Virus genome (UHGV): UHGV-0046264
Direction: 5' to 3' (one strand)
Length of the DNA: 38,853 nt
From: a virus
The translations under genes and the position numbers were made by a program. The notes beneath the pieces are model-generated. The model was given only the letters and a program-made list of their open reading frames with translations. It was not told where the DNA came from and ran no database searches. Shown here in pieces: positions 12,572-27,789 of the stretch. The first letter of the stretch is position 1; every line of letters starts with the position of its first letter.

Positions 12572-13766
<1,195 letters not shown>

Positions 13767-20364: not shown

Positions 20365-20501
20365 AATCTTAACTACAATATGATTCATTTTGATGATTGT
20401 TTCATAAGGAACAGTGAAGTAAGATCTAAGAGGAGTTAAATTTTATACAGTATAATCATAATATTGCAGCAAGGTGGTTATAATTGAAAGAATATTTAGA
20501 T

Positions 20502-21959
20502 ATGAATACATCTCATGTAAGAGTTGTTACTCATATGTGTGGGTTCCTGGTTTGGCTCTATAGTCTTTCAATGTTGCCACCAATGGTTGTAGCATTGTTT
20601 TATAAAGAAAAAAGCCTGTTCGTTTTCTTTATAACTTTCGTTATATTTTTTTGCATTGGTGGCGGAGCGTGGTATACAACTAAGAAATCTGGCATTCAAT
20701 TACGTACCCGTGATGGGTTTATTATAATTGTAATGTTTTGGATTTTGTTTTCTGTTATTAGTGCATTCCCTTTATGGATTGACTCAGAACTTAATTTAAC
20801 GTTCATTGATGCTCTGTTTGAAGGGGTTTCTGGAATAACAACAACAGGAGCAACTGTAATTGATGATGTTAGTTCATTACCTCGGGCATATTTGTACTAT
20901 CGGTCACAGTTAAATTTTATAGGTGGTTTAGGAGTTATTGTTCTGGCGGTTGCTGTATTGCCATTATTGGGTATTGGTGGTGCAAAGCTTTATCAGTCAG
21001 AAATGCCGGGGCCATTTAAGGATGACAAACTCACTCCCCGCCTGGCCGATACGTCACGGACACTGTGGATAACTTATTCTTTATTAGGTATTGCTTGTAT
21101 TGTCTGTTATAGACTTGCAGGAATGCCTTTGTTTGATGCTATTTGTCACGGGATTTCCACAGTTTCGCTTGGTGGTTTCTCAACTCATAGCGAGAGTATC
21201 GGATATTTTAATAACTATTTGGTTGAGCTGGTGGCTGGTTCTTTTTCCCTGCTATCGGCTTTCAACTTCACTCTTTGGTATATTGTTATTAGCAGGAAAA
21301 CGATAAAACCTTTAATCAGAGATATTGAACTTCGTTTCTTTCTGTTAATAGCCTTAGGGGTGATCATTGTTACCTCTTTCCAGGTCTGGCATATAGGTAT
21401 GTATGACTTGCATGGAAGTTTTATTCATTCGTTTTTTCTTGCCAGCTCCATGCTCACTGATAATGGTTTAGCTACGCAGGATTATGCAAGTTGGCCCACG
21501 CACACGATAGTGTTTTTGCTGTTGTCAAGTTTCTTTGGGGGATGTATAGGTTCAACTTGTGGTGGAATTAAGTCACTTCGATTTCTTATACTTTTCAAAC
21601 AAAGCAAACACGAGATAAATCAGCTTTCTCATCCCAGAGCGTTGTTGAGTGTAAATGTAGGAGGGAAGATAGTTACAGATCGTGTAATGAGGTCTGTATG
21701 GAGTTTCTTTTTTCTTTATACTCTCTTCACGGTGTTTTTTATACTGGTGTTAAATGGTATGGGATATGATTTTCTTACATCATTTGCAACAGTGGCTGCA
21801 TGTATTAATAATATGGGATTAGGTTTTGGGGCTACTGCATCGTCATTCGGAGTGCTTAATGACATTGCAAAATGTTTAATGTGCATAGCTATGATTCTTG
21901 GTCGCCTTGAAATTTATCCTGTTATTATATTGTTTTCAGGTTTTTTTTGGCGCTCCTAA
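20502..21959 (+). CDS. trkG: TrkG potassium uptake protein (TrkH family), 485 aa
   Basis: Polytopic membrane protein starting MNTSHVRVVTHMCGFLVWLYSL; AT-rich codon usage; known Rac moron located after the lysis genes. Confidence 0.9.
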   Translation: MNTSHVRVVTHMCGFLVWLYSLSMLPPMVVALFYKEKSLFVFFITFVIFFCIGGGAWYTTKKSGIQLRTRDGFIIIVMFWILFSVISAFPLWIDSELNLTFIDALFEGVSGITTTGATVIDDVSSLPRAYLYYRSQLNFIGGLGVIVLAVAVLPLLGIGGAKLYQSEMPGPFKDDKLTPRLADTSRTLWITYSLLGIACIVCYRLAGMPLFDAICHGISTVSLGGFSTHSESIGYFNNYLVELVAGSFSLLSAFNFTLWYIVISRKTIKPLIRDIELRFFLLIALGVIIVTSFQVWHIGMYDLHGSFIHSFFLASSMLTDNGLATQDYASWPTHTIVFLLLSSFFGGCIGSTCGGIKSLRFLILFKQSKHEINQLSHPRALLSVNVGGKIVTDRVMRSVWSFFFLYTLFTVFFILVLNGMGYDFLTSFATVAACINNMGLGFGATASSFGVLNDIAKCLMCIAMILGRLEIYPVIILFSGFFWRS

Positions 21960-22045
21960 TATATGGCTGATTTATAATTGTGAGTTTAATATTATGTTGA
22001 CTCACTCATTGATCCAATACCTAACTTTACCAGCAACACCTCCGT

Positions 22046-22077
22046 CCCCAGTAGCACTGGCTGCTGGGGTGCGTTTT
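22046..22077 (+). terminator. Intrinsic terminator downstream of trkG: 10-bp stem CCCCAGTAGC/GCTGCTGGGG (one G-U pair), ACTG loop, then TGCGTTTTATT
   Basis: Strong hairpin plus U-rich tract about 85 bp after the trkG stop. Confidence 0.65.
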
Positions 22078-22096
22078 ATTCATAAAGCAAGGCTGT

Positions 22097-22888
22097 ATGA
22101 GCGAGAAATTAAAGATAGTCTATCGCCCATTACAAGAATTGTCACCGTATGCGCACAACGCCAGGACGCACAGTACTGAGCAGGTGGCACAACTGGTAGA
22201 AAGTATTAAGCAATTCGGCTGGACTAATCCGGTGCTGATTGACGAAAAGGGCGAAATTATTGCGGGTCACGGTCGTGTTATGGCGGCTGAAATGCTCAAA
22301 ATGGATTCTGTTCCGGTCATTGTTCTGTCTGGCCTGACGGATGAGCAGAAAAAGGCGTACCGCCTGGCAGATAATCGCCTGCCGATGAATGCTGGCTGGG
22401 ATGAAGATCTGTTGCGGATGGAGCTGTCGGACCTAATCAATGCTGATTTTGATGTCTCCCTGACAGGCTTCATCCCGACAGAAATTGATGAACTGTTGAC
22501 GGATGTTTTGCCCGGTACAGGAAATGAGGAGGAGCCGTATACGACGAAAATTGATACGCCTGTTTATGAGCCGTCGGGCGGTAAACCGGATATCAGTGAA
22601 CTGTACGACGATACGAAAACTCAGGAGCTGATCAGCCGGATACGTTCGGCGTCCCTTGAGCCTGATATTGAGAAATTCCTCCTGTGTGCGGCAGAACGTC
22701 ACACGGTGTTTAATTTCAGCAGAATTGCGGACTATTACGCTCACGCCCCCTCTGAAATTCAGTGTTTTTTCGAGGAGTCGGCGCTGGTGATCATTGATTA
22801 TCAGCAGGCTATTGAAAATGGATTTGTCCGGATGACGCAGCGCATGGTGGAGATCATGCATGGTGGTGAGGAGGAGGAATATGCGTGA
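22097..22888 (+). CDS. ParB-like nuclease domain protein (YnaK-like N-terminus) with uncharacterised C-terminal domain, 263 aa
   Basis: N-terminal motifs LSPYAHNARTHS, IIAGHGR, YRLADNR characteristic of ParB N-terminal/sulfiredoxin-fold nuclease domains; C-terminal ~170 aa acidic and unrecognised. Confidence 0.7.
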   Translation: MSEKLKIVYRPLQELSPYAHNARTHSTEQVAQLVESIKQFGWTNPVLIDEKGEIIAGHGRVMAAEMLKMDSVPVIVLSGLTDEQKKAYRLADNRLPMNAGWDEDLLRMELSDLINADFDVSLTGFIPTEIDELLTDVLPGTGNEEEPYTTKIDTPVYEPSGGKPDISELYDDTKTQELISRIRSASLEPDIEKFLLCAAERHTVFNFSRIADYYAHAPSEIQCFFEESALVIIDYQQAIENGFVRMTQRMVEIMHGGEEEEYA

Positions 22889-23813
22889 TGATTTTTGCGC
22901 CTTTATTCTGACTCACGGGCGACCGGACAAAGTTCTGACTTACCGGACGTTGCGTCGTGCTGGCTATACCGGGAAAATTTTTATCGTTGTTGATGATGAA
23001 GATAAGACACGGCATCAGTACATGGCTGAATTTGGTGAACAGGTGCTGGTGTTTTCCAAAGCCGATATCGCCAGTCGTTTTGACGAAGCCGATAATTTCT
23101 GTGACCGCCGCTCAATTTTTTACGCCCGTAATGCCTGTTTCGACCTGGCAAAACTGGTCGGGTGTAAATACTTCATTCAGCTCGATGATGATTATCACGA
23201 GTTCCAGTTTCGGGTGGATCGCAACTATGACCAGGCCTATTTTCCGATAAGGAAACTGGATGCGATCCTTTCTGAAATGCTGGCGTACTACGAATCAATA
23301 CCTGCTCTTTCCATCGCTATGTCGCAGGGCGGGGATTTTCTTGGTGACAATGGCGGCCATGCTTCGTGGGTGAAACGCAAGGCAATGAACAGCTTTATCT
23401 GTTCGGTTGATCGACCGTTCTCATTCATGGGGCGCATTAACGAGGATGTGAATACGTACACGAATCTCGGTCGCTGTGGTGAATTGTTTATGACGATCGG
23501 TGCTGTCCAGTTAGGGCAGAAACAGACGCAGAAAAACAGCGGCGGAATGACCGAGCTGTATCTGGATTCCGGAACCTACGTTAAAAGTTTTTACTCCGTC
23601 ATGTATGCGCCGTCGTGCGTAAAAATCTCACTGATGGGTGCCAGCCATAAACGCATTCACCATCAGGTCACCTGGAACAACGCTGCAGTAAAAATCCTTC
23701 ACGAAAAATACAGGAAGAAGACACCCTGCATATCAATGGGGGTGACAAATGATTCCGTATTCGAAAGTCGAGTCTCTGGCAGCGTGCCGGATGACTGCAC
23801 AACAAATCGCTGA
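22881..23813 (+). CDS. Hypothetical protein with DxD-type motif (possible GT-A-like nucleotide-sugar transferase fold), 310 aa
   Basis: GAGGAGGAGGAA ribosome binding site before the ATG; ATGCGTGA overlap with the upstream ParB-like gene; motifs KIFIVVDDED and FIQLDDDYHEF. Fold assignment is inference only. Confidence 0.45.
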   Translation: MRDDFCAFILTHGRPDKVLTYRTLRRAGYTGKIFIVVDDEDKTRHQYMAEFGEQVLVFSKADIASRFDEADNFCDRRSIFYARNACFDLAKLVGCKYFIQLDDDYHEFQFRVDRNYDQAYFPIRKLDAILSEMLAYYESIPALSIAMSQGGDFLGDNGGHASWVKRKAMNSFICSVDRPFSFMGRINEDVNTYTNLGRCGELFMTIGAVQLGQKQTQKNSGGMTELYLDSGTYVKSFYSVMYAPSCVKISLMGASHKRIHHQVTWNNAAVKILHEKYRKKTPCISMGVTNDSVFESRVSGSVPDDCTTNR

Positions 23814-24000
23814 CGTTCTGGATGTTGATCTGAACCGACTGAAAGAAAATCGGGAAGCAATGACAGATTTTTATGCGGCCATCCGTAAGGGCAGAGCGAA
23901 AGGTGAAGCCGAGTTACGAGCGGCATTGTTTAAGCTTGCCAGAAAAGGGGATGCCTTTGCTCTGCGCGAACTACTCAGGGTGGATAAAAATCAGGACTAA
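23749..24000 (+). CDS. Small putative HTH DNA-binding protein upstream of terS, 83 aa (start uncertain)
   Basis: GGGGGTGA before the ATG; HTH-like segment MTAQQIADVLDVDLNRLK; overlaps the 3' end of the upstream gene. Confidence 0.45.
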   Translation: MIPYSKVESLAACRMTAQQIADVLDVDLNRLKENREAMTDFYAAIRKGRAKGEAELRAALFKLARKGDAFALRELLRVDKNQD

Positions 24001-24003
24001 CTG

Positions 24004-25098
24004 ATGAGCAGACCGGACTGGGGGGCGTTGCAGCAGGAGTATATTGCTGAATACACCCGCTCCGGTATATCTCCGGTGGCATGGTGTGAAGCAAGGGGAC
24101 TGAATTACGCAACAGCCCGTCGTTACATCAAAAAAACTCCGAAAAATGCGCAGACAGAAATGTGCAAAACTGCGCAAAAAAGTGCGCAGAAAAAATCTGC
24201 GCAGACTGCACAAAAGCGGAACGAAAAATCTCAGGAAAAAAAGCCAGTATTCGATGCGGGCCTGAATGAGGGCGACGCGGAGGAATTTTCGTTCTGTCCC
24301 GATGAATTCGGCATTTCTGACCAGCAGGCTAAGTTTGCGATGCTTGTTGCTCAGGGTAAAAAGCCGACAGAGGCGTACCGACTAGCCGGTTATGAGGGGC
24401 AAGGTGCGACAGCTAATAGCAACGCCAGTCGTATGCTTAGAAATGCCAGGGTTTTTCGCGCTATCAGCTACTTCCGCAATCAGTACCAGAAACGCTATAC
24501 CGCAGACCTGGATTTACTAGTGAGTCAGTTGATGGCCATTGTCCTGGCCGACCCCAATCAGCTTGCACAATTTCGCCGTGTTAACTGCCGTTATTGCTGG
24601 GGCGAGAATCATCTCTACCAGTGGCGCGATATAGCAGAATTCGACAAGGCAGCGGCGCAGGCTTCCAGAGATGGCAAACCCGAACCGGAATATGGAGGCC
24701 TCGGCTTTGTTGATAACGCCATACCCAATCCGGACTGCCCGAAGTGCTGCGGTGAGGGAACGGGACAGCTTTATATGGCTGATACCACTCTGCTTGATGG
24801 GGATGCGCGGCAATTATATGCAGGGGCAAAATTCGGAAAATTCGGCGTTGAGATCCTGCTGGAGGATAAGGCTGCCGCCCGGCGTGAATTGTTGCGTTTG
24901 CTTTCTGCTGGCGGGGCTTTATGTGCAGATAAGCGGCTACAGGAACTGGAAATTGAACGGCGCAGAATGGAAAACCAGAAGCTGCGCAAAGAGATCGAAA
25001 CGGTGGAAGATAATGAACATCCCCAGCCTGTGGCGATCAATATTAATGTGGTTGATGCCAGAGTAAGGAGTGATGAAGATGATCTCTCCGACGCTTAA
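24004..25098 (+). CDS. Terminase small subunit, 364 aa
   Basis: N-terminal HTH; Terminase_2-like segment (FAMLVAQGKKPTEAYRLAGYEG); immediately upstream of and overlapping the large subunit gene. Confidence 0.75.
   Translation: MSRPDWGALQQEYIAEYTRSGISPVAWCEARGLNYATARRYIKKTPKNAQTEMCKTAQKSAQKKSAQTAQKRNEKSQEKKPVFDAGLNEGDAEEFSFCPDEFGISDQQAKFAMLVAQGKKPTEAYRLAGYEGQGATANSNASRMLRNARVFRAISYFRNQYQKRYTADLDLLVSQLMAIVLADPNQLAQFRRVNCRYCWGENHLYQWRDIAEFDKAAAQASRDGKPEPEYGGLGFVDNAIPNPDCPKCCGEGTGQLYMADTTLLDGDARQLYAGAKFGKFGVEILLEDKAAARRELLRLLSAGGALCADKRLQELEIERRRMENQKLRKEIETVEDNEHPQPVAININVVDARVRSDEDDLSDA
24147..24211. repeat. Periodic TGCGCA palindrome array inside terS (candidate pac site)
   Basis: TGCGCA at 24147, 24171, 24183, 24198 with near-copies TGTGCA (24161) and TGCACA (24206), spaced about 12-24 bp; encodes the low-complexity AQK-rich protein segment. 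Confidence 0.4.
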
Positions 25099-26380
25099 TG
25101 TGCCTCAGGCGCGATTTCTTTCAATGCCCCATAAATTTAAAGCCTATATTGCTGGTTTTGGCTCGGGCAAAACATGGGTTGGGTGTGGCGGCATATGCAA
25201 GGGGATTTGGGAGCATCCAGGTATAAATCAGGGATATTTTGCGCCAACGTATCCCCAAATTCGCGATATTTTTTACCCTACAGTGGAAGAAGTTGCTGCT
25301 GACTGGGGATTGAACGTAAAAATTAATGAGGGAAATAAAGAGGTTCACTTTTATTACGGACGCCAGTATCGGGGAACCACTATCTGCAGATCGATGGAGA
25401 AGCCACAAACGATCGTCGGTTTCAAAATTGGTAATGCGTTGGTGGATGAACTGGACATTTTGCCGAAGGAAAAAGCCAGAACGGCGTGGCGCAAGATAAT
25501 TGCACGTATGCGTTATAAGATTGATGGACTTCGCAACGGTATTGACGTTACAACCACGCCGGAAGGATTCAAATTTGTCTACGAGCAGTTTGTTAAAGCC
25601 GTGCGTGAAAAAACAGAGCTGGCCTCACTGTATGGTCTGGTGCAGGCATCTACTTTCGATAATGAAAAGAACCTGCCAGCAGATTACATTCCTTCGCTTC
25701 TTGAATCATACCCTCCAGAGCTGATTAAAGCCTATCTTCGAGGACAGTTTACTAACCTGACAAGTGGTACTGTTTACCATCAGTTTGACCGGAAACTGAA
25801 TAATTGCGAAGAAGTGGAGCAGCCAGGGGAGCCGATTTATATTGGGATGGATTTTAACGTTGGAAAGATGGCGGGAATCGTCCATGTGCTGCGTTTGGGG
25901 CTTCCATGTGCGGTAACTGAAATCATCAATGCCTACGATACGCCGGATATGATCCGCATCATTAAAGAACGCTTCTGGCTGTATGATGGGAATGATTACC
26001 GGAAAGTGAGGGAAATTTATATTTATCCAGATGCTTCCGGGGATTCCAGAAAATCAAGTAACGCAAGTACGACGGATATAGCCCAGCTTAAGCAGGCTGG
26101 TTTTAACGTTGTGGTGAACAGCTCGAACCCGCCAGTAAAAGATCGCGTTAACTCAATGAATGCAATGTTCTGCAATGCCAATGGTGAGCGTCGCTATAAA
26201 GTTAATGTGAAGCGTTGCCCGTTATATGCCGAATCTCTGGAGCAACAGGTCTGGGATGAGAAGGGGGAGCCTGATAAAAAATCTGGCAATGATCACCCGA
26301 ATGATGCCGGAGGTTATTTCATCGTTAAGCAATTCCCTATTGTCAAACCGACCGGAAGAGTCACATCACTTCGGATTTAA
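25070..26380 (+). CDS. Terminase large subunit, 436 aa
   Basis: Walker A-like AGFGSGKTW near the N-terminus; Asp/Glu-rich C-terminal nuclease-like region; lies between terS and portal. Confidence 0.85.
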   Translation: MMKMISPTLNVPQARFLSMPHKFKAYIAGFGSGKTWVGCGGICKGIWEHPGINQGYFAPTYPQIRDIFYPTVEEVAADWGLNVKINEGNKEVHFYYGRQYRGTTICRSMEKPQTIVGFKIGNALVDELDILPKEKARTAWRKIIARMRYKIDGLRNGIDVTTTPEGFKFVYEQFVKAVREKTELASLYGLVQASTFDNEKNLPADYIPSLLESYPPELIKAYLRGQFTNLTSGTVYHQFDRKLNNCEEVEQPGEPIYIGMDFNVGKMAGIVHVLRLGLPCAVTEIINAYDTPDMIRIIKERFWLYDGNDYRKVREIYIYPDASGDSRKSSNASTTDIAQLKQAGFNVVVNSSNPPVKDRVNSMNAMFCNANGERRYKVNVKRCPLYAESLEQQVWDEKGEPDKKSGNDHPNDAGGYFIVKQFPIVKPTGRVTSLRI

Positions 26381-26382
26381 TT

Positions 26383-27789
26383 ATGGCTGATATATCAACA
26401 CCCAACCTCGACTATAACGATATGCTGGAGGCGTGGGATATTAACGACGCACTGATGGGCGGTACGCTTGAAATGCGCAGGCAGGGGGAAAATTATCTCC
26501 CAAAATGGCCTAACGAAGATGAAGACGCTTATAAAAAACGCCTGTCTGTGGCTACGCTACTTCCTGTGTATGAAGAAAGCATCAAGCAAAATATTGGGCG
26601 CATATTTGCAGAGCCGACAGTATTGAGTGAGGAAACGCCGGCAAAAATCAGGGAATATGCAGAAAATATCGACATGGAGGGGAGCCGACTGGATGTGTGG
26701 GCGCAGCAATTTTTCAGCCTCGCATTTCAGTATGGTGTGGCACATGCGCTGGTGGACTATCCACGAACGGATATGAAAGAGATTCGGACAAAAGCCGATG
26801 AAAACGCGGCCGGTGGTCGTCCGTACGTTACGATGCTGAATCCACGCCAGGTTATTGGATGGAAATCGAAAGTTGAAAAAGGGAAAGTTGTTCTCACTGA
26901 TTTGCGTATAAAAGAGGTCATCATTATTGATGGTGATGATTTCGGGCAGAAGAAGGTGGAGCAGATCCGCCATATTATGCCCCGTCGAGTTGAAATTTAT
27001 CGACGTAGCGAAGGCACTAATGGCGAATCTGTCTGGACGCTTCATGAGTCATGGAATACCAGCCGTGATGATATTCCTCTGGTAACACTGTACACGAAGA
27101 AAACAGGATTTATGCGTGGTACACCGCCATTGCTTAATCTTGGCTTGCTGAATATCAAGCACTGGCAAAGCCAGAGCGAGCAGGACAATATTCTTCATGT
27201 TGCCCGCGTTCCATTGCTGGTGGCCTACGGGCTGGACAGGAATGAAGAACTGACGGTTGGTGCATCCACCGCTACGATTTTTGAGGACAGAACAAAAAAT
27301 GGCCTCGAATATGTTGAACATAGTGGCGCAGCGATAGAATCTGGCGAAACATCACTTGAGAAGCTGGAAAATCAGATGCGTCATGCCGGCGCTAAACTTC
27401 TGCGTGCTGAAAATACATCCACCAAATCTGTTGATCAGACTAATGAAGAGCGAATGCAGGAAAACTCGCCGCTTTATACAATGGCGAACTCCCTCGAAGA
27501 TGCCCTCGATAATATTCTCCAGATAATGGCGGAATGGATCGGAGAGAGTTGCGGTGGCAATGTGGATGTGCGCACTGAACTGGATGTATCTGCCCAGGTG
27601 TTTGACTCATCCTCCGCGCTGGCTGTTCAGTCATTGCGTCAGGGCGGTGATATACGTCAGATTGATGCGGTTCGGGTGTTGCAGGCGTTGAAATTTATCG
27701 ATCAGGATTCCCGTCCAGAGGAAGTGATCGATGAATTAAAAAATCAGAGTGTAATGCTGATGGAAATCAATGATGCAAACCGTGAATGA
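26383..27789 (+). CDS. Portal protein, 468 aa
   Basis: Size and position between terL and the head morphogenesis gene; acidic C-terminus. Confidence 0.75.
   Translation: MADISTPNLDYNDMLEAWDINDALMGGTLEMRRQGENYLPKWPNEDEDAYKKRLSVATLLPVYEESIKQNIGRIFAEPTVLSEETPAKIREYAENIDMEGSRLDVWAQQFFSLAFQYGVAHALVDYPRTDMKEIRTKADENAAGGRPYVTMLNPRQVIGWKSKVEKGKVVLTDLRIKEVIIIDGDDFGQKKVEQIRHIMPRRVEIYRRSEGTNGESVWTLHESWNTSRDDIPLVTLYTKKTGFMRGTPPLLNLGLLNIKHWQSQSEQDNILHVARVPLLVAYGLDRNEELTVGASTATIFEDRTKNGLEYVEHSGAAIESGETSLEKLENQMRHAGAKLLRAENTSTKSVDQTNEERMQENSPLYTMANSLEDALDNILQIMAEWIGESCGGNVDVRTELDVSAQVFDSSSALAVQSLRQGGDIRQIDAVRVLQALKFIDQDSRPEEVIDELKNQSVMLMEINDANRE

What the first reader, a model, noticed from the sequence alone, without database searches (positions are those of the whole stretch)
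22097..24000. ParB-like nuclease plus DxD-motif protein plus small HTH gene upstream of terminase
The ParB-like gene (motifs NARTH, GHGR, LADNR) is translationally coupled to a 310-aa protein with acidic DxD-type motifs (VVDDED, QLDDDY) and followed by an 83-aa HTH ORF. K-12 Rac keeps only remnants here (ynaK, ydaY). ParB-like nuclease domains in phages are often fused or paired with DNA-modifying enzymes, so this may be a DNA-modification or anti-restriction module. The C-terminal half of the ParB-like protein and the whole 310-aa protein are unassigned.
Basis: partly seen in the sequence, partly recalled or inferred. Interest (0 to 1): 0.6.

Follow-up and report, generated by a model that had tools for sequence, protein, structure and literature searches.

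The report
Phage ParB-partnered DNA glycosyltransferase gene pair
Just upstream of the DNA-packaging genes, this E. coli prophage carries a tightly coupled gene pair, a ParB-like protein and a sugar-transferring enzyme from a family known to decorate phage DNA; thousands of viruses of bacteria and archaea carry the same pair, yet nothing encoded nearby makes the chemical handle such enzymes normally attach sugars to.

Summary
The window has a 263-aa ParB/Srx-fold gene (22097-22888). It overlaps by 8 nt a 310-aa gene (22881-23813), followed by an 83-aa ORF (23749-24000) and then TerS and TerL.

The 310-aa protein is not unassigned. It is a GT-A glycosyltransferase of Pfam family TAGT (PF20691), which includes the phage T6 second glucosyltransferase. 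NCBI's annotation pipeline (PGAP) names it "GREB1-related".

The C-terminal half of the ParB-like protein has no Pfam family, but it is a conserved ~115-aa domain with the motif Y-[TS]-x-K-[IV]-x-x-P-x-Y. This domain and the GT co-occur almost without exception, whichever one is used to pick the loci (80/87 and 69/80 directly adjacent). The loci span many bacterial phyla and archaeal viruses, usually just upstream of TerS/TerL from four different terminase families.

This matches the "ParB-terminase locus" predicted by Aravind's group, and the experimentally shown ParB-dependent phage thymine dioxygenases.

Best reading: a late-expressed, two-component DNA glycosylation module. The acceptor is unknown: no TET, hydroxymethylase or C5-methyltransferase is encoded here or in most relatives.

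The 83-aa ORF is related to the terminase small subunit and is not part of the pair.

Verdict: a new member of a predicted but uncharacterised kind, moderately interesting and easy to test in E. coli.

The parts
22046..22079 (+). Terminator-like hairpin with a T-run between trkG and the ParB-like gene. No sigma-70-like promoter follows it before the ParB-like start codon at 22097.
   Evidence: 10-bp stem, 7 G-C pairs, tail TGCGTTTTAT. The scan of 21800-24200 found only two promoter-like matches, fewer than the shuffles gave (2 against a mean of 3.5): one internal + strand site at 23068-23096 and one on the - strand. That the pair is read from the late operon by antitermination is inferred.
22097..22888 (+). 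ParB/Srx-fold partner protein, 263 aa (the full-length form of K-12 ynaK).
   Evidence: Pfam ParB_N 9e-7. PHROG 620 over the full length, 1e-90. Profile hits to Noc and ParB structures. The model's N-terminal domain matches CTP/CDP-bound ParB and Noc.
22097..22504 (+). N-terminal nucleotide-binding-type ParB domain plus a helical 'WD...LTGF' segment (res 1-136). This is the same module that is fused to phage DNA methyltransferases.
   Evidence: PADLOC MTase_II model positions 13-151 match res 10-144, 1.5e-38. PHROG 498 'DNA methyltransferase' 9e-51. In the alignment to Noc, N21 pairs with Q, H58 with E, R60 with R, and D92-N93 with E-N. Two of these substitutions (N for Q, H for E) are the ones reported for dioxygenase-associated ParBs.
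22532..22885 (+). Conserved GT-partner domain (res ~146-263). It has the linear motif Y148-T-x-K151-I-x-x-P155-x-Y157 in a predicted disordered linker, then a helical domain and an acidic tail. No Pfam family covers it.
   Evidence: Alignments A2, A3 and A8. The motif is present in 73 of 86 partners. No Pfam match. There are 1189 representative clusters, almost always with the domain at the C-terminus. The domain occurs alone as ~132-aa proteins next to the GT.
22881..23813 (+). TAGT-family GT-A glycosyltransferase, 310 aa. It is translationally coupled to the partner gene by an 8-nt overlap. The DxD motif is D102-D104 (23184-23192).
   Evidence: Pfam PF20691, 3.8e-35. PHROG 842, 7e-104. Model with a confident N-terminal Rossmann-like half, matching SpsA and glycogenin and viral TAGT proteins. 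Invariant acidic and His residues. Junction sequence.
23749..24000 (+). 83-aa ORF related to the terminase small subunit (a possible DNA-binding packaging accessory). It overlaps the last 65 nt of the GT gene. It is not part of the conserved pair.
   Evidence: PHROG 309 TerS positions 145-218, 8e-23. tblastn hit inside the TerS of a Pasteurella phage. No Pfam, NCBIfam or PDB match. An ORF of this size follows the GT only in enterobacterial relatives (Shigella, E. ruysiae, Pantoea). The Pantoea one is 64% identical.
24004..26380 (+). Terminase small (24004-25098) and large (25070-26380) subunits, the conserved downstream neighbours of the pair.
   Evidence: Terminase_2, Terminase_6N and Terminase_6C. 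In about 43 of 59 diverse loci, the first large ORF downstream of the pair is a TerL, from four different families.

Best explanation
The two overlapping genes encode a two-component glycosyltransferase system belonging to the phage 'ParB-terminase locus'.

The 310-aa protein is a metal-dependent (DxD) GT-A enzyme of the TAGT family. It transfers a sugar from a nucleotide sugar.

The 263-aa protein is its obligate partner. Its conserved C-terminal domain and Y-T-x-K-I-x-x-P-x-Y motif bind or complete the enzyme. Its N-terminal ParB-type nucleotide-binding domain, the same module found fused to phage DNA methyltransferases, tethers or activates the complex on DNA.

The pair is made late in infection, together with the terminase. 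It most likely adds sugars to progeny phage DNA before or during packaging, which would protect that DNA from host nucleases.

Shown here: the family and fold of both proteins, intact catalytic motifs, translational coupling, near-absolute co-occurrence of the partner domain and the GT, and linkage to terminases.

Inferred: physical interaction between the two proteins, DNA as the acceptor, the timing of expression, and the protective role.

Unknown: the acceptor atom and the sugar.
For: 1. GT identity.
- Pfam TAGT 3.8e-35 and PHROG 842 7e-104.
- GT-A fold hits to SpsA and glycogenin and to viral TAGT proteins.
- The DDD, D38/D41, NED and HH residues are invariant among homologues at 60-82% identity, and most of them down to 38%.
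- TAGT members act on DNA. T6 and related phages use a TAGT enzyme to add the second glucose to glucosyl-5hmC (PMC13390438). GT-A phage GTs glycosylate 5hmC DNA (bioRxiv 10.1101/2023.12.21.572611).

2. Obligate pairing.
- Of 87 loci picked with the GT from Proteobacteria, Bacteroidota, Firmicutes, Acidobacteriota, Verrucomicrobiota, candidate phyla radiation (CPR) bacteria and archaea, 80 have the partner directly upstream, typically overlapping by 4-14 nt. Six of the other seven have it one gene away, and the four of those intervening genes that were tested are a second TAGT or a methyltransferase.
- Of 80 viral loci picked with the partner's C-domain alone, 69 have the GT directly downstream. 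Nine more have one intervening gene. The one tested by Pfam (of eight near-identical copies) is a histidine phosphatase-cytidylyltransferase, i.e. a candidate nucleotide-sugar enzyme.

3. The C-domain is the indispensable part. About ten loci encode it alone (~132 aa) next to the GT.

4. Link to DNA.
- The ParB domain is the subtype fused to DNA methyltransferases.
- It shows two substitutions (N for Q, H for E) reported for the ParB-like activators that phage thymine dioxygenases need for activity.
- In three loci whose partner lacks the ParB domain, a DNA polymerase III beta sliding clamp gene directly follows the GT.

5. Position.
- A TerL of four unrelated families follows in about 43 of 59 loci.
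- In phage c5 the pair is ORF1-ORF2 right after cos. In Nocardia phage NTR1 it directly precedes TerL.
- Aravind's group predicted that enzymes in ParB-terminase loci modify phage DNA during packaging.

6. Accessory sugar-nucleotide genes (the cytidylyltransferase fusion, a UDP-galactopyranose mutase, tandem GTs) show that donors vary, as expected for an arms-race modification.
Against: - No enzyme that makes the usual acceptor is present. There is no TET/JBP dioxygenase, thymidylate-synthase-type hydroxymethylase or C5-methyltransferase in this prophage or in the complete 31.8-kb genome of phage c5. Neither of the first two is among the 25 families listed, which cover every family found in three or more of 150 upstream neighbour proteins from 28 diverse loci. 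Unmodified DNA bases have no hydroxyl group, so the known chemistry of the family does not apply directly.
- A family member, human GREB1, glycosylates a protein (PMC7968844).
- The partner's invariant Tyr and Ser/Thr motif lies in a disordered linker and could itself be an acceptor.
- For the dioxygenase-associated ParBs, mutating the nucleotide-binding residues did not abolish function, so a CTP-driven sliding clamp is not established even in that system.
- The C-terminal third of the GT model and the partner's C-domain model have low confidence. No complex could be modelled.
- The three beta-clamp loci are related to one another and may count as a single evolutionary event.
Confidence: 0.5

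Rival explanations
1. Protein glycosylation. The GT glycosylates a protein rather than DNA. Candidates are the invariant Tyr or Ser/Thr of its partner's Y-[TS]-x-K-I-x-x-P-x-Y motif (glycogenin-like priming), or a packaging or virion protein. The ParB-like protein would then be substrate or scaffold.
For: - GREB1, a TAGT-domain protein, O-GlcNAcylates ER-alpha (PMC7968844).
- The motif sits in a predicted disordered linker, yet it matches in 73 of 86 partners; within those matches Y148 and P155 never vary and Y157 is Y in 71 (F in 2).
- No precursor-base enzyme is encoded.
- Glycogenin is among the fold hits, although that is a generic GT-A match.
Against: - The ParB module is the type fused to DNA methyltransferases.
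- The pair occurs in replication modules with DNA polymerase and beta-clamp genes, in jumbo and other phages.
- The closest characterised relatives in phages act on DNA.
- A self-glycosylating protein has no obvious role that would be conserved in viruses of both bacteria and archaea.
Confidence: 0.2
2. Packaging accessory. The ParB-like protein is a nuclease or a pac/cos-recognition factor that assists the terminase, as HNH proteins do in HK97-like phages. The GT has a secondary or regulatory role.
For: - The pair is constantly next to TerS and TerL of four families.
- In phage NTR1 no separate TerS lies between the pair and TerL.
- In phage c5 the pair lies directly after cos.
- Databases label the protein 'ParB-like nuclease'.
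Against: - Partners lacking the whole ParB domain still accompany the GT.
- HNH genes coexist with the pair in several loci.
- In Vibrio jumbo phages, and in phages that carry their own DNA polymerase, the pair lies far from the terminase.
- This model does not explain the strict conservation of the GT catalytic residues.
Confidence: 0.1
3. Prophage-encoded defence or exclusion. The pair glycosylates the 5hmC or 5hmU DNA of superinfecting phages, or otherwise interferes with them, to the benefit of the lysogen.
For: - The idea was raised for prophage GTs in bioRxiv 10.1101/2023.12.21.572611.
- E. coli is attacked by hmC-containing T-even phages.
- This position in lambdoid prophages often carries accessory cargo genes: trkG here, and toxin genes in ETEC4075.
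Against: - No PADLOC defence model matches the GT or the pair.
- The genes lie inside the late operon behind a terminator-like hairpin, with no promoter of their own detected before the first gene.
- The pair is present in phages with no integrase or repressor annotated (c5; Vibrio jumbo phages).
Confidence: 0.07
4. Cell-envelope glycan modification. The pair would act like a seroconversion enzyme or like TarP, altering O-antigen or teichoic acids.
For: - Prophage GT-A enzymes such as TarP modify wall teichoic acid, and they are structural neighbours of phage DNA GTs.
- Lactobacillus phages are among the carriers.
Against: - The same pair occurs in viruses of Gram-negative and Gram-positive bacteria and of haloarchaea, whose envelopes share no common acceptor.
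- The partner is a DNA-type ParB protein.
- No hydrophobic, membrane-spanning-type stretch is apparent in either protein when the sequences are read (no predictor was run).
Confidence: 0.03

Closest known systems
TAGT family (Pfam PF20691), including the T2/T6 second glucosyltransferase and the GT-A glycosyltransferases of TET/5mYOX phage gene clusters
   Same: Clear sequence membership (3.8e-35), a GT-A fold and the DxD motif. The C-terminal R-x-H-H motif is shared even with the homologue in T4-like Aeromonas phage 65.
   Different: - Characterised members act on 5hmC or on glucosyl-5hmC. No pathway to such bases is encoded here.
- The T4-like homologue has no partner protein, whereas this clade always has one.
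ParB-dependent phage thymine dioxygenases (5mYOX plus a ParB-like activator; PNAS 2026, PMC13229309)
   Same: - A DNA-modifying enzyme is encoded next to a ParB-like protein made of a nucleotide-binding domain, an unstructured linker and a C-terminal domain, with no HTH DNA-binding domain.
- Two residue replacements match (N for the catalytic Q, H for the box II E).
- The locus is often next to the terminase.
   Different: - The partner enzyme is a glycosyltransferase, not a dioxygenase.
- The linker here carries a highly conserved motif, whereas theirs is described as non-conserved.
- Some partners consist of the C-domain alone.
- Dependence of this GT on its partner has not been tested.
[quoted passage not shown]
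   Same: The layout is the same: a ParB-domain gene, then a DNA-modification enzyme, then the terminase. The prediction is also the same: DNA is modified as part of packaging.
   Different: That description is a computational prediction. The 2013 paper itself is not held in the paper library, so I could not check whether it describes the TET-less ParB-TAGT pair or the partner C-domain.
ParB-domain DNA methyltransferase fusions of phages (PHROG 498; PADLOC MTase_II)
   Same: They share the same N-terminal ParB module, including the 'WD...LTGF' segment (res 3-144), and the same typical position upstream of the terminase.
   Different: There the enzyme is fused to the ParB module and transfers methyl groups. 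Here the enzyme is a separate protein, recruited through a dedicated adaptor domain, and it transfers a sugar.
DpdA-DpdB of the 7-deazaguanine DNA modification system (from my own knowledge; not tested here)
   Same: A DNA base-modifying enzyme that requires a ParB-like NTPase partner.
   Different: The enzyme is a transglycosylase that exchanges bases and is unrelated to this GT. No sequence comparison was made.

Membership tests
TAGT glycosyltransferases (PF20691) | Significant match to the family profile above the curated cut-off | tested here: met
   122.1 bits against a cut-off of 27.5, E = 3.8e-35, profile positions 4-205 of 205. All 120 listed homologues carry PF20691.
TAGT glycosyltransferases (PF20691) | GT-A (Rossmann-like) fold with a DxD metal/nucleotide-sugar motif at the end of a beta strand | tested here: met
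   In the model, residues 1-150 have pLDDT mostly above 85, and strand 97-102 runs into D102-D104. Foldseek hits SpsA, glycogenin and LH3 and viral TAGT proteins at 3.8e-19. DDD is invariant.
TAGT glycosyltransferases (PF20691) | Glycosyl transfer to a hydroxymethyl-pyrimidine (or its sugar) in DNA | not testable with these tools
   This needs biochemistry. No source of 5hmC or 5hmU is encoded in the prophage.
TAGT glycosyltransferases (PF20691) | Genomic association with a TET/JBP (5mYOX) dioxygenase, the origin of the family's name | tested here: not met
   None is annotated in the window or in the ETEC H10407 version. None appears in the three Pfam-annotated metagenomic contexts. Tet_JBP is not among the 25 Pfam families listed for 150 upstream neighbour proteins from 28 loci; that list covers every family found in three or more proteins. 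This is an association, not a requirement for sequence membership.
ParB/Srx (ParB-CTPase) fold proteins | Match to PF02195 and a ParB N-domain fold | tested here: met
   29.3 bits against a cut-off of 26.3. Profile hits to Noc and ParB chains down to 1.3e-5. Foldseek hits CDP/CTP-bound ParB and Noc at about 1e-6.
Canonical partition ParB (ParABS) | HTH DNA-binding domain, a parA partner gene, and the full GERR and ENLQR boxes | tested here: not met
   TIGR00180 scores 38 bits against a cut-off of 58. No parA is annotated nearby. The boxes read GHGR and ADNR. No HTH domain lies between the N-domain and the C-domain.
ParB-like activators of phage DNA-modifying enzymes (5mYOX-associated ParBs) | NBD + unstructured linker + C-terminal domain, no DNA-binding domain, encoded next to the enzyme | tested here: met
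   Model: N-domain 1-135, residues 137-169 with pLDDT below 50, then a helical C-domain. Adjacent to the GT in 80 of 87 loci. The architecture is as described.
ParB-like activators of phage DNA-modifying enzymes (5mYOX-associated ParBs) | The enzyme is inactive without its cognate ParB | not testable with these tools
   This needs co-expression assays like those in PMC13229309. Near-absolute co-occurrence in both directions is only indirect support.
ParB-terminase (Tls) locus | ParB-domain gene and a modification enzyme immediately upstream of the terminase genes | tested here: met
   The window order is ParB-like, GT, 83-aa ORF, TerS, TerL. The same order holds with TerL of four families in about 43 of 59 loci.
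Known anti-phage defence systems (PADLOC) | Match of the component proteins to a defence-system model | tested here: not met
   The only match is between the ParB N-domain and the N-terminal part of a Type II methyltransferase model. The GT and the 83-aa ORF match nothing.

The most novel reading that the evidence does not exclude
This clade of partner-dependent TAGT enzymes installs a sugar on DNA without any 5-hydroxymethylpyrimidine precursor. The sugar might go directly onto a canonical or host-methylated base, or onto DNA ends generated by the terminase. If so, common E. coli lambdoid phages, and more than a thousand phage and archaeal-virus lineages, would carry a DNA modification of a chemical type not yet described. 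The ~115-aa partner domain would be a new adaptor that makes the enzyme competent on DNA.
Probability: 0.2. Interest if true: 0.85.

Novelty: new member of a known kind. Interest (0 to 1): 0.55.

Why it matters
Both genes belong to named families, and the layout (a ParB gene, a modification enzyme, then the terminase) was predicted in 2013 to modify phage DNA at packaging. To that extent the finding is not a new kind of system.

What is still open is the chemistry. The pair is widespread. Intact copies are found in about 16% of complete E. coli genomes, and the partner domain forms about 1,200 clusters at 50% identity across bacteria and archaea. Yet the pair usually comes without any enzyme that could make the hydroxymethyl base that related glycosyltransferases need.

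An intact copy in an inducible E. coli prophage makes the question directly testable by mass spectrometry and genetics.

If the pair does modify DNA, the answer would add a DNA modification to a well-studied phage group. It would also extend the recent discovery that ParB-like proteins activate DNA-modifying enzymes from dioxygenases to glycosyltransferases. And it would matter for sequencing, for restriction evasion and for choosing phages for therapy.

If the acceptor turns out to be a protein, the pair would be a new and very widespread phage protein-glycosylation system.

Tried and rejected
- **Looking for a hidden source of 5hmC or 5hmU.** I read the PGAP annotation of the whole prophage in three strains and the complete genome of phage c5. 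I also ran Pfam on 150 upstream neighbour proteins from 28 loci. Nothing was found. The family-count output lists only the 25 most frequent families, so a family present in one or two proteins could have been missed. The second batch of 145 proteins was not scanned.
- **Could the partner's C-domain be an enzyme, such as an oxygenase?** It has no Pfam match. It is small and helical, with a single conserved His, so I rejected this as unlikely. The model is of low confidence.
- **Looking for a partner-GT fusion protein.** The 560-aa ORF in L278 looked like one, but it is the ParB-like protein fused to the histidine phosphatase-cytidylyltransferase gene. The N-terminal extension of the Aeromonas phage 65 GT does not match the C-domain. 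None of the 150 listed representatives has the length and domain position expected of a fusion to the GT.
- **Sequence search of the PDB with the GT profile** gave only chance hits.
- **NCBIfam has no model for the GT**, although PGAP now names it 'GREB1-related'.
- **The first two scans of viral contigs** returned almost only near-identical E. coli prophages and were useless for diversity. Putting a divergent sequence first in the query solved this.
- **The defining paper** (Iyer et al. 2013) is not held in the paper library, so its statements are taken from citing papers.
- **Literature searches** for ParB combined with glycosyltransferase, DNA glycosylation or terminase found no study of this pair. 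The ynaK search was not followed up: none of the 15 listed titles concerns this function, and the papers were not opened.
Full report
**What is in the window**

The window is a Rac-type lambdoid prophage of E. coli. It carries intR, xisR, recET, kilR, sieB, ydaS-W-type genes, lysis genes and trkG. It is 100% identical to prophages in strains such as MS 69-1.

After trkG (20484-21959) comes a terminator-like hairpin (22046-22069 plus a T-run). The genes that follow are:

| Coordinates | Product |
|---|---|
| 22097-22888 | ParB-like protein, 263 aa |
| 22881-23813 | 310-aa protein |
| 23749-24000 | 83-aa ORF |
| 24004-25098 | TerS |
| 25070-26380 | TerL |
| 26383-27789 | portal |

The second gene starts at an ATG preceded by GAGGAGGAGGAA and overlaps the stop codon of the first (ATGCGTGA). 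Translational coupling is therefore credible.

K-12 Rac keeps only the first 88 codons (ynaK), joined directly to ydaY. The 2.1-kb segment is present at 80% coverage or more in 866 of 5,426 complete E. coli genomes.

**The 310-aa protein**

It is a clear member of Pfam PF20691, the TET-associated glycosyltransferases (122 bits, E = 3.8e-35). It also matches PHROG 842 (7e-104). Recent PGAP annotation calls it 'GREB1-related protein'.

An AlphaFold model is confident for residues 1-150 and poor for the C-terminal third. It matches GT-A enzymes in the PDB (SpsA, glycogenin, LH3) and viral TAGT proteins (3.8e-19).

D38, D41, D102-D104 (the DxD motif), N187-E188-D189 and H260-H261 are invariant among 16 homologues at 60-82% identity. 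Most of these residues, though not D38, N187 or E188, stay invariant when the set is widened to 38% identity with sequences from Lactobacillus, Nocardia, Vibrio and haloarchaeal viruses. The enzyme therefore looks active.

Known activities in the family are:

- addition of the second glucose to glucosyl-5hmC in T6-like phages (PMC13390438);
- glycosylation of 5hmC DNA by GT-A enzymes of TET gene clusters;
- O-GlcNAcylation of a protein by human GREB1.

**The 263-aa protein**

Residues 1-135 form a ParB/Srx-type nucleotide-binding domain. The evidence is Pfam ParB_N, profile hits to Noc and ParB chains and fold hits to CDP/CTP-bound ParB and Noc.

It is not a partition ParB. It scores below the TIGR00180 cut-off, no HTH domain is detected, and no parA gene is nearby.

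In the alignment to Noc, N21 takes the place of the catalytic Q. GHGR replaces GERR, and ADN replaces IEN. Two of these replacements (N for Q, H for E) are the ones reported for the ParB-like proteins that activate phage thymine dioxygenases.

Residues 3-144 also match the N-terminal module of phage ParB-DNA-methyltransferase fusions (PHROG 498, 9e-51; PADLOC MTase_II, 1.5e-38).

Residues 137-169 are predicted to be disordered. They nevertheless contain the motif Y-[TS]-x-K-[IV]-x-x-P-x-Y, which is present in 73 of 86 partner proteins.

Residues 170-255 form a helical domain with strongly conserved blocks (FL..AA.RH.VF.Y, IAEYYAH, Q.LME.SALVIIDF..AIE.GF) and an acidic tail. No Pfam family matches this half. 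It defines about 1,189 clusters at 50% identity. In nearly all of them it lies at the C-terminus of a 250-300-aa protein.

**The pair is a unit**

I picked 87 loci using the glycosyltransferase alone. They came from one-genome-per-species contigs plus phage and metagenome loci. They span Proteobacteria, Bacteroidota, Firmicutes, Acidobacteriota, Verrucomicrobiota, Planctomycetota, candidate phyla radiation (CPR) bacteria and archaea.

- 80 have the partner gene immediately upstream on the same strand, typically overlapping by 4-14 nt.
- 6 have it one gene away.
- 1 is cut off by the end of its contig.

Four of the six intervening genes were tested. Two are a second TAGT, one is a TAGT-methyltransferase fusion, and one is a methyltransferase.

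I then ran the reverse test on 80 viral loci picked with the C-domain alone.

- 69 have the GT directly downstream.
- 9 have one gene in between. Eight of these intervening genes are near-identical copies. The one run through Pfam is a bifunctional histidine phosphatase plus cytidylyltransferase, a plausible nucleotide-sugar enzyme.
- 1 has the partner fused to that same enzyme, at the end of its contig.
- 1 has too little sequence left downstream (738 bases) for a whole GT gene.

About ten loci, including Vibrio jumbo phages, encode only the ~132-aa motif-plus-C-domain protein next to the GT. The C-domain is therefore the indispensable partner, and the ParB domain is a frequent addition.

The TAGT homologue of T4-like Aeromonas phage 65, from the group of phages that carry hmC DNA, has no such partner.

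**Neighbourhood**

In 59 diverse loci, the first large ORF downstream is a terminase large subunit in about 43. Four families are represented: Terminase_6N (22), Terminase_3 (13), GpA (5) and TerL_ATPase (3). Small terminase or HTH-type proteins usually lie in between.

- In Lactobacillus phage c5 the pair is ORF1-ORF2, directly after cos.
- In Nocardia phage NTR1 it directly abuts TerL.
- In haloarchaeal virus HHTV-2 it lies 3 kb upstream of TerL.

Other recurrent neighbours are tandem TAGT copies, a radical SAM enzyme (seven Clostridia loci) and a UDP-galactopyranose mutase. In three loci whose partner lacks the ParB domain, a DNA polymerase III beta clamp gene directly follows the GT.

What is missing is any source of the usual acceptor. 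No TET/JBP dioxygenase, thymidylate-synthase-like hydroxymethylase or C5-methyltransferase is annotated in this prophage or in the ETEC H10407 version, or in the complete c5 genome. Neither of the first two families appears among the families listed for 150 upstream neighbour proteins from 28 loci. Two of those 150 proteins are C5-methyltransferases.

**How this fits what is known**

Papers citing Iyer et al. 2013 describe a 'ParB-terminase large subunit locus' in phages and prophages. [quoted passage not shown] ParB is proposed to direct the modification apparatus to DNA.

In 2025-2026 it was shown by experiment that one subclass of phage thymine dioxygenases is inactive without a cognate ParB-like protein. 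That protein has the same architecture as the one here: a nucleotide-binding domain, a linker and a C-terminal domain, with no DNA-binding domain. Mutating the nucleotide-binding residues did not abolish activation.

A survey of phage GTs found that about 65% of GT-containing contigs have no dioxygenase or hydroxymethylase nearby, and left those unexplained.

I found no study of the ParB-TAGT pair itself.

**Interpretation**

The best-supported model is a two-component glycosyltransferase. The C-domain and motif of the partner bind or complete the GT. The GT's conserved but poorly modelled C-terminal third may fold only in that complex. The ParB module, or a beta clamp in some phages that lack it, brings the enzyme onto DNA.

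The genes lie in the late operon. Transcription must pass the terminator-like hairpin, and no promoter was detected before the first gene. Their position next to the terminase suggests that they act on progeny DNA before or during packaging, with protection from host nucleases as the likely benefit.

I put DNA as the acceptor at about 0.5. It is no higher because the chemistry has no obvious nucleophile without a hydroxymethyl base. Protein glycosylation, perhaps of the partner's own invariant Tyr or Ser/Thr motif, is the main rival at about 0.2. A packaging-accessory role, a defence role and envelope modification are less likely, for the reasons given under the rival explanations.

**The 83-aa ORF**

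It matches an internal segment of a TerS family and part of a Pasteurella phage TerS. An ORF of this size follows the GT only in enterobacterial relatives. The one in Pantoea is 64% identical. The ORF overlaps a 22-residue C-terminal extension of the E. coli GT that other homologues lack. I assign it to the packaging genes. Its HTH character is unconfirmed.

**Verdict**

- The enzyme has a curated family.
- The ParB-like protein is better seen as an activator or adaptor than as a nuclease.
- The locus type has been predicted before.

The system is a new member of a known but biochemically uncharacterised kind.

- the dedicated ~115-aa partner domain and its motif;
- the near-absolute two-way linkage with this TAGT clade;
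- partners that lack the ParB domain, some with a beta-clamp gene directly after the GT;
- the general absence of a precursor-base pathway.

Interest is moderate (0.55). A specialist would not be surprised by the gene content. The unknown acceptor, in a very common and genetically tractable E. coli prophage, is a well-posed and testable question.

Noticed in passing
window 20484-21959: trkG, a potassium transporter gene with low G+C (0.38-0.41 against about 0.48 in the flanks), sits as cargo between the lysis genes and the ParB-GT pair. In strain ETEC4075, the stretch between the DUF1133 gene and the truncated TerS instead holds a scabin-related ADP-ribosyltransferase, a subtilase AB5 toxin B subunit and a putative holin (L291 3316-4984). 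This junction looks like a hot spot for cargo genes.
   Followed up: partly
window 23749-23813: Compared with homologues of about 288 aa, the E. coli GT has a C-terminal extension of about 22 residues. The extension lies in the 65 nt that overlap the 83-aa ORF. PGAP starts the small ORF at 23791, but the ATG at 23749 has the better ribosome-binding site (GGGGGTGA).
   Followed up: partly
L185, L189, L195, L197, L199, L200, L207 (for example L197 10830-11819): In Clostridia prophages the GT is followed directly by a ~325-aa radical SAM enzyme, before TerS and TerL. Where the upstream gene was tested (L197), the layout is ParB-like, TAGT, TAGT, radical SAM. In strict anaerobes this enzyme could be an oxygen-independent way to make an acceptor, or it could tailor the sugar. 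Neither idea was tested.
   Followed up: no
L172 2970-6193; L186 8460-12153; L176 7306-11959: These loci lack the ParB domain. In L172 and L186 the layout is TAGT, C-domain protein, TAGT, DNA polymerase III beta clamp. L186 has an extra weak C-domain copy upstream. In L176 a family A DNA polymerase precedes the C-domain protein, the GT and the beta clamp.
   Followed up: partly
L243 4329-5297 and seven similar loci; L278 3563-5245: A bifunctional histidine phosphatase (His_Phos_1) plus cytidylyltransferase-like protein is inserted between the ParB-like gene and the GT. In L278 it is fused to the ParB-like protein. This suggests that a dedicated nucleotide-sugar donor is made. Another locus has a UDP-galactopyranose mutase as its first large downstream gene.
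   Followed up: partly
L150 3581-5275; L193 5883-6719: A class I methyltransferase domain (Methyltransf_23) is fused to a TAGT in L150. In L193 it is a separate gene between the partner and the GT. The same methyltransferase family has been reported fused to ParB folds in phages (PMC12704722).
   Followed up: no
L003 15837-16894 and L004 8659-9716: Two Glycos_transf_2 genes lie downstream of the capsid gene in a soil phage that also has the ParB-TAGT pair. This may be virion glycosylation, separate from the pair.
   Followed up: no
window 12718-13734: An IS5 transposase is inserted in the early region of the prophage. MB22 (L001) has two IS3 copies in the corresponding prophage: one in the Rz lysis gene, and one between the truncated small ORF and TerS. 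Its ParB-like gene is annotated as an incomplete pseudogene, so decay of the module can be seen in some strains.
   Followed up: no
A8 members: Six of 30 partner C-domains give weak matches (best E = 0.009) to Pfam PF23887, 'Phage L5 gene 47-like protein'. This could be a distant relationship or chance.
   Followed up: no
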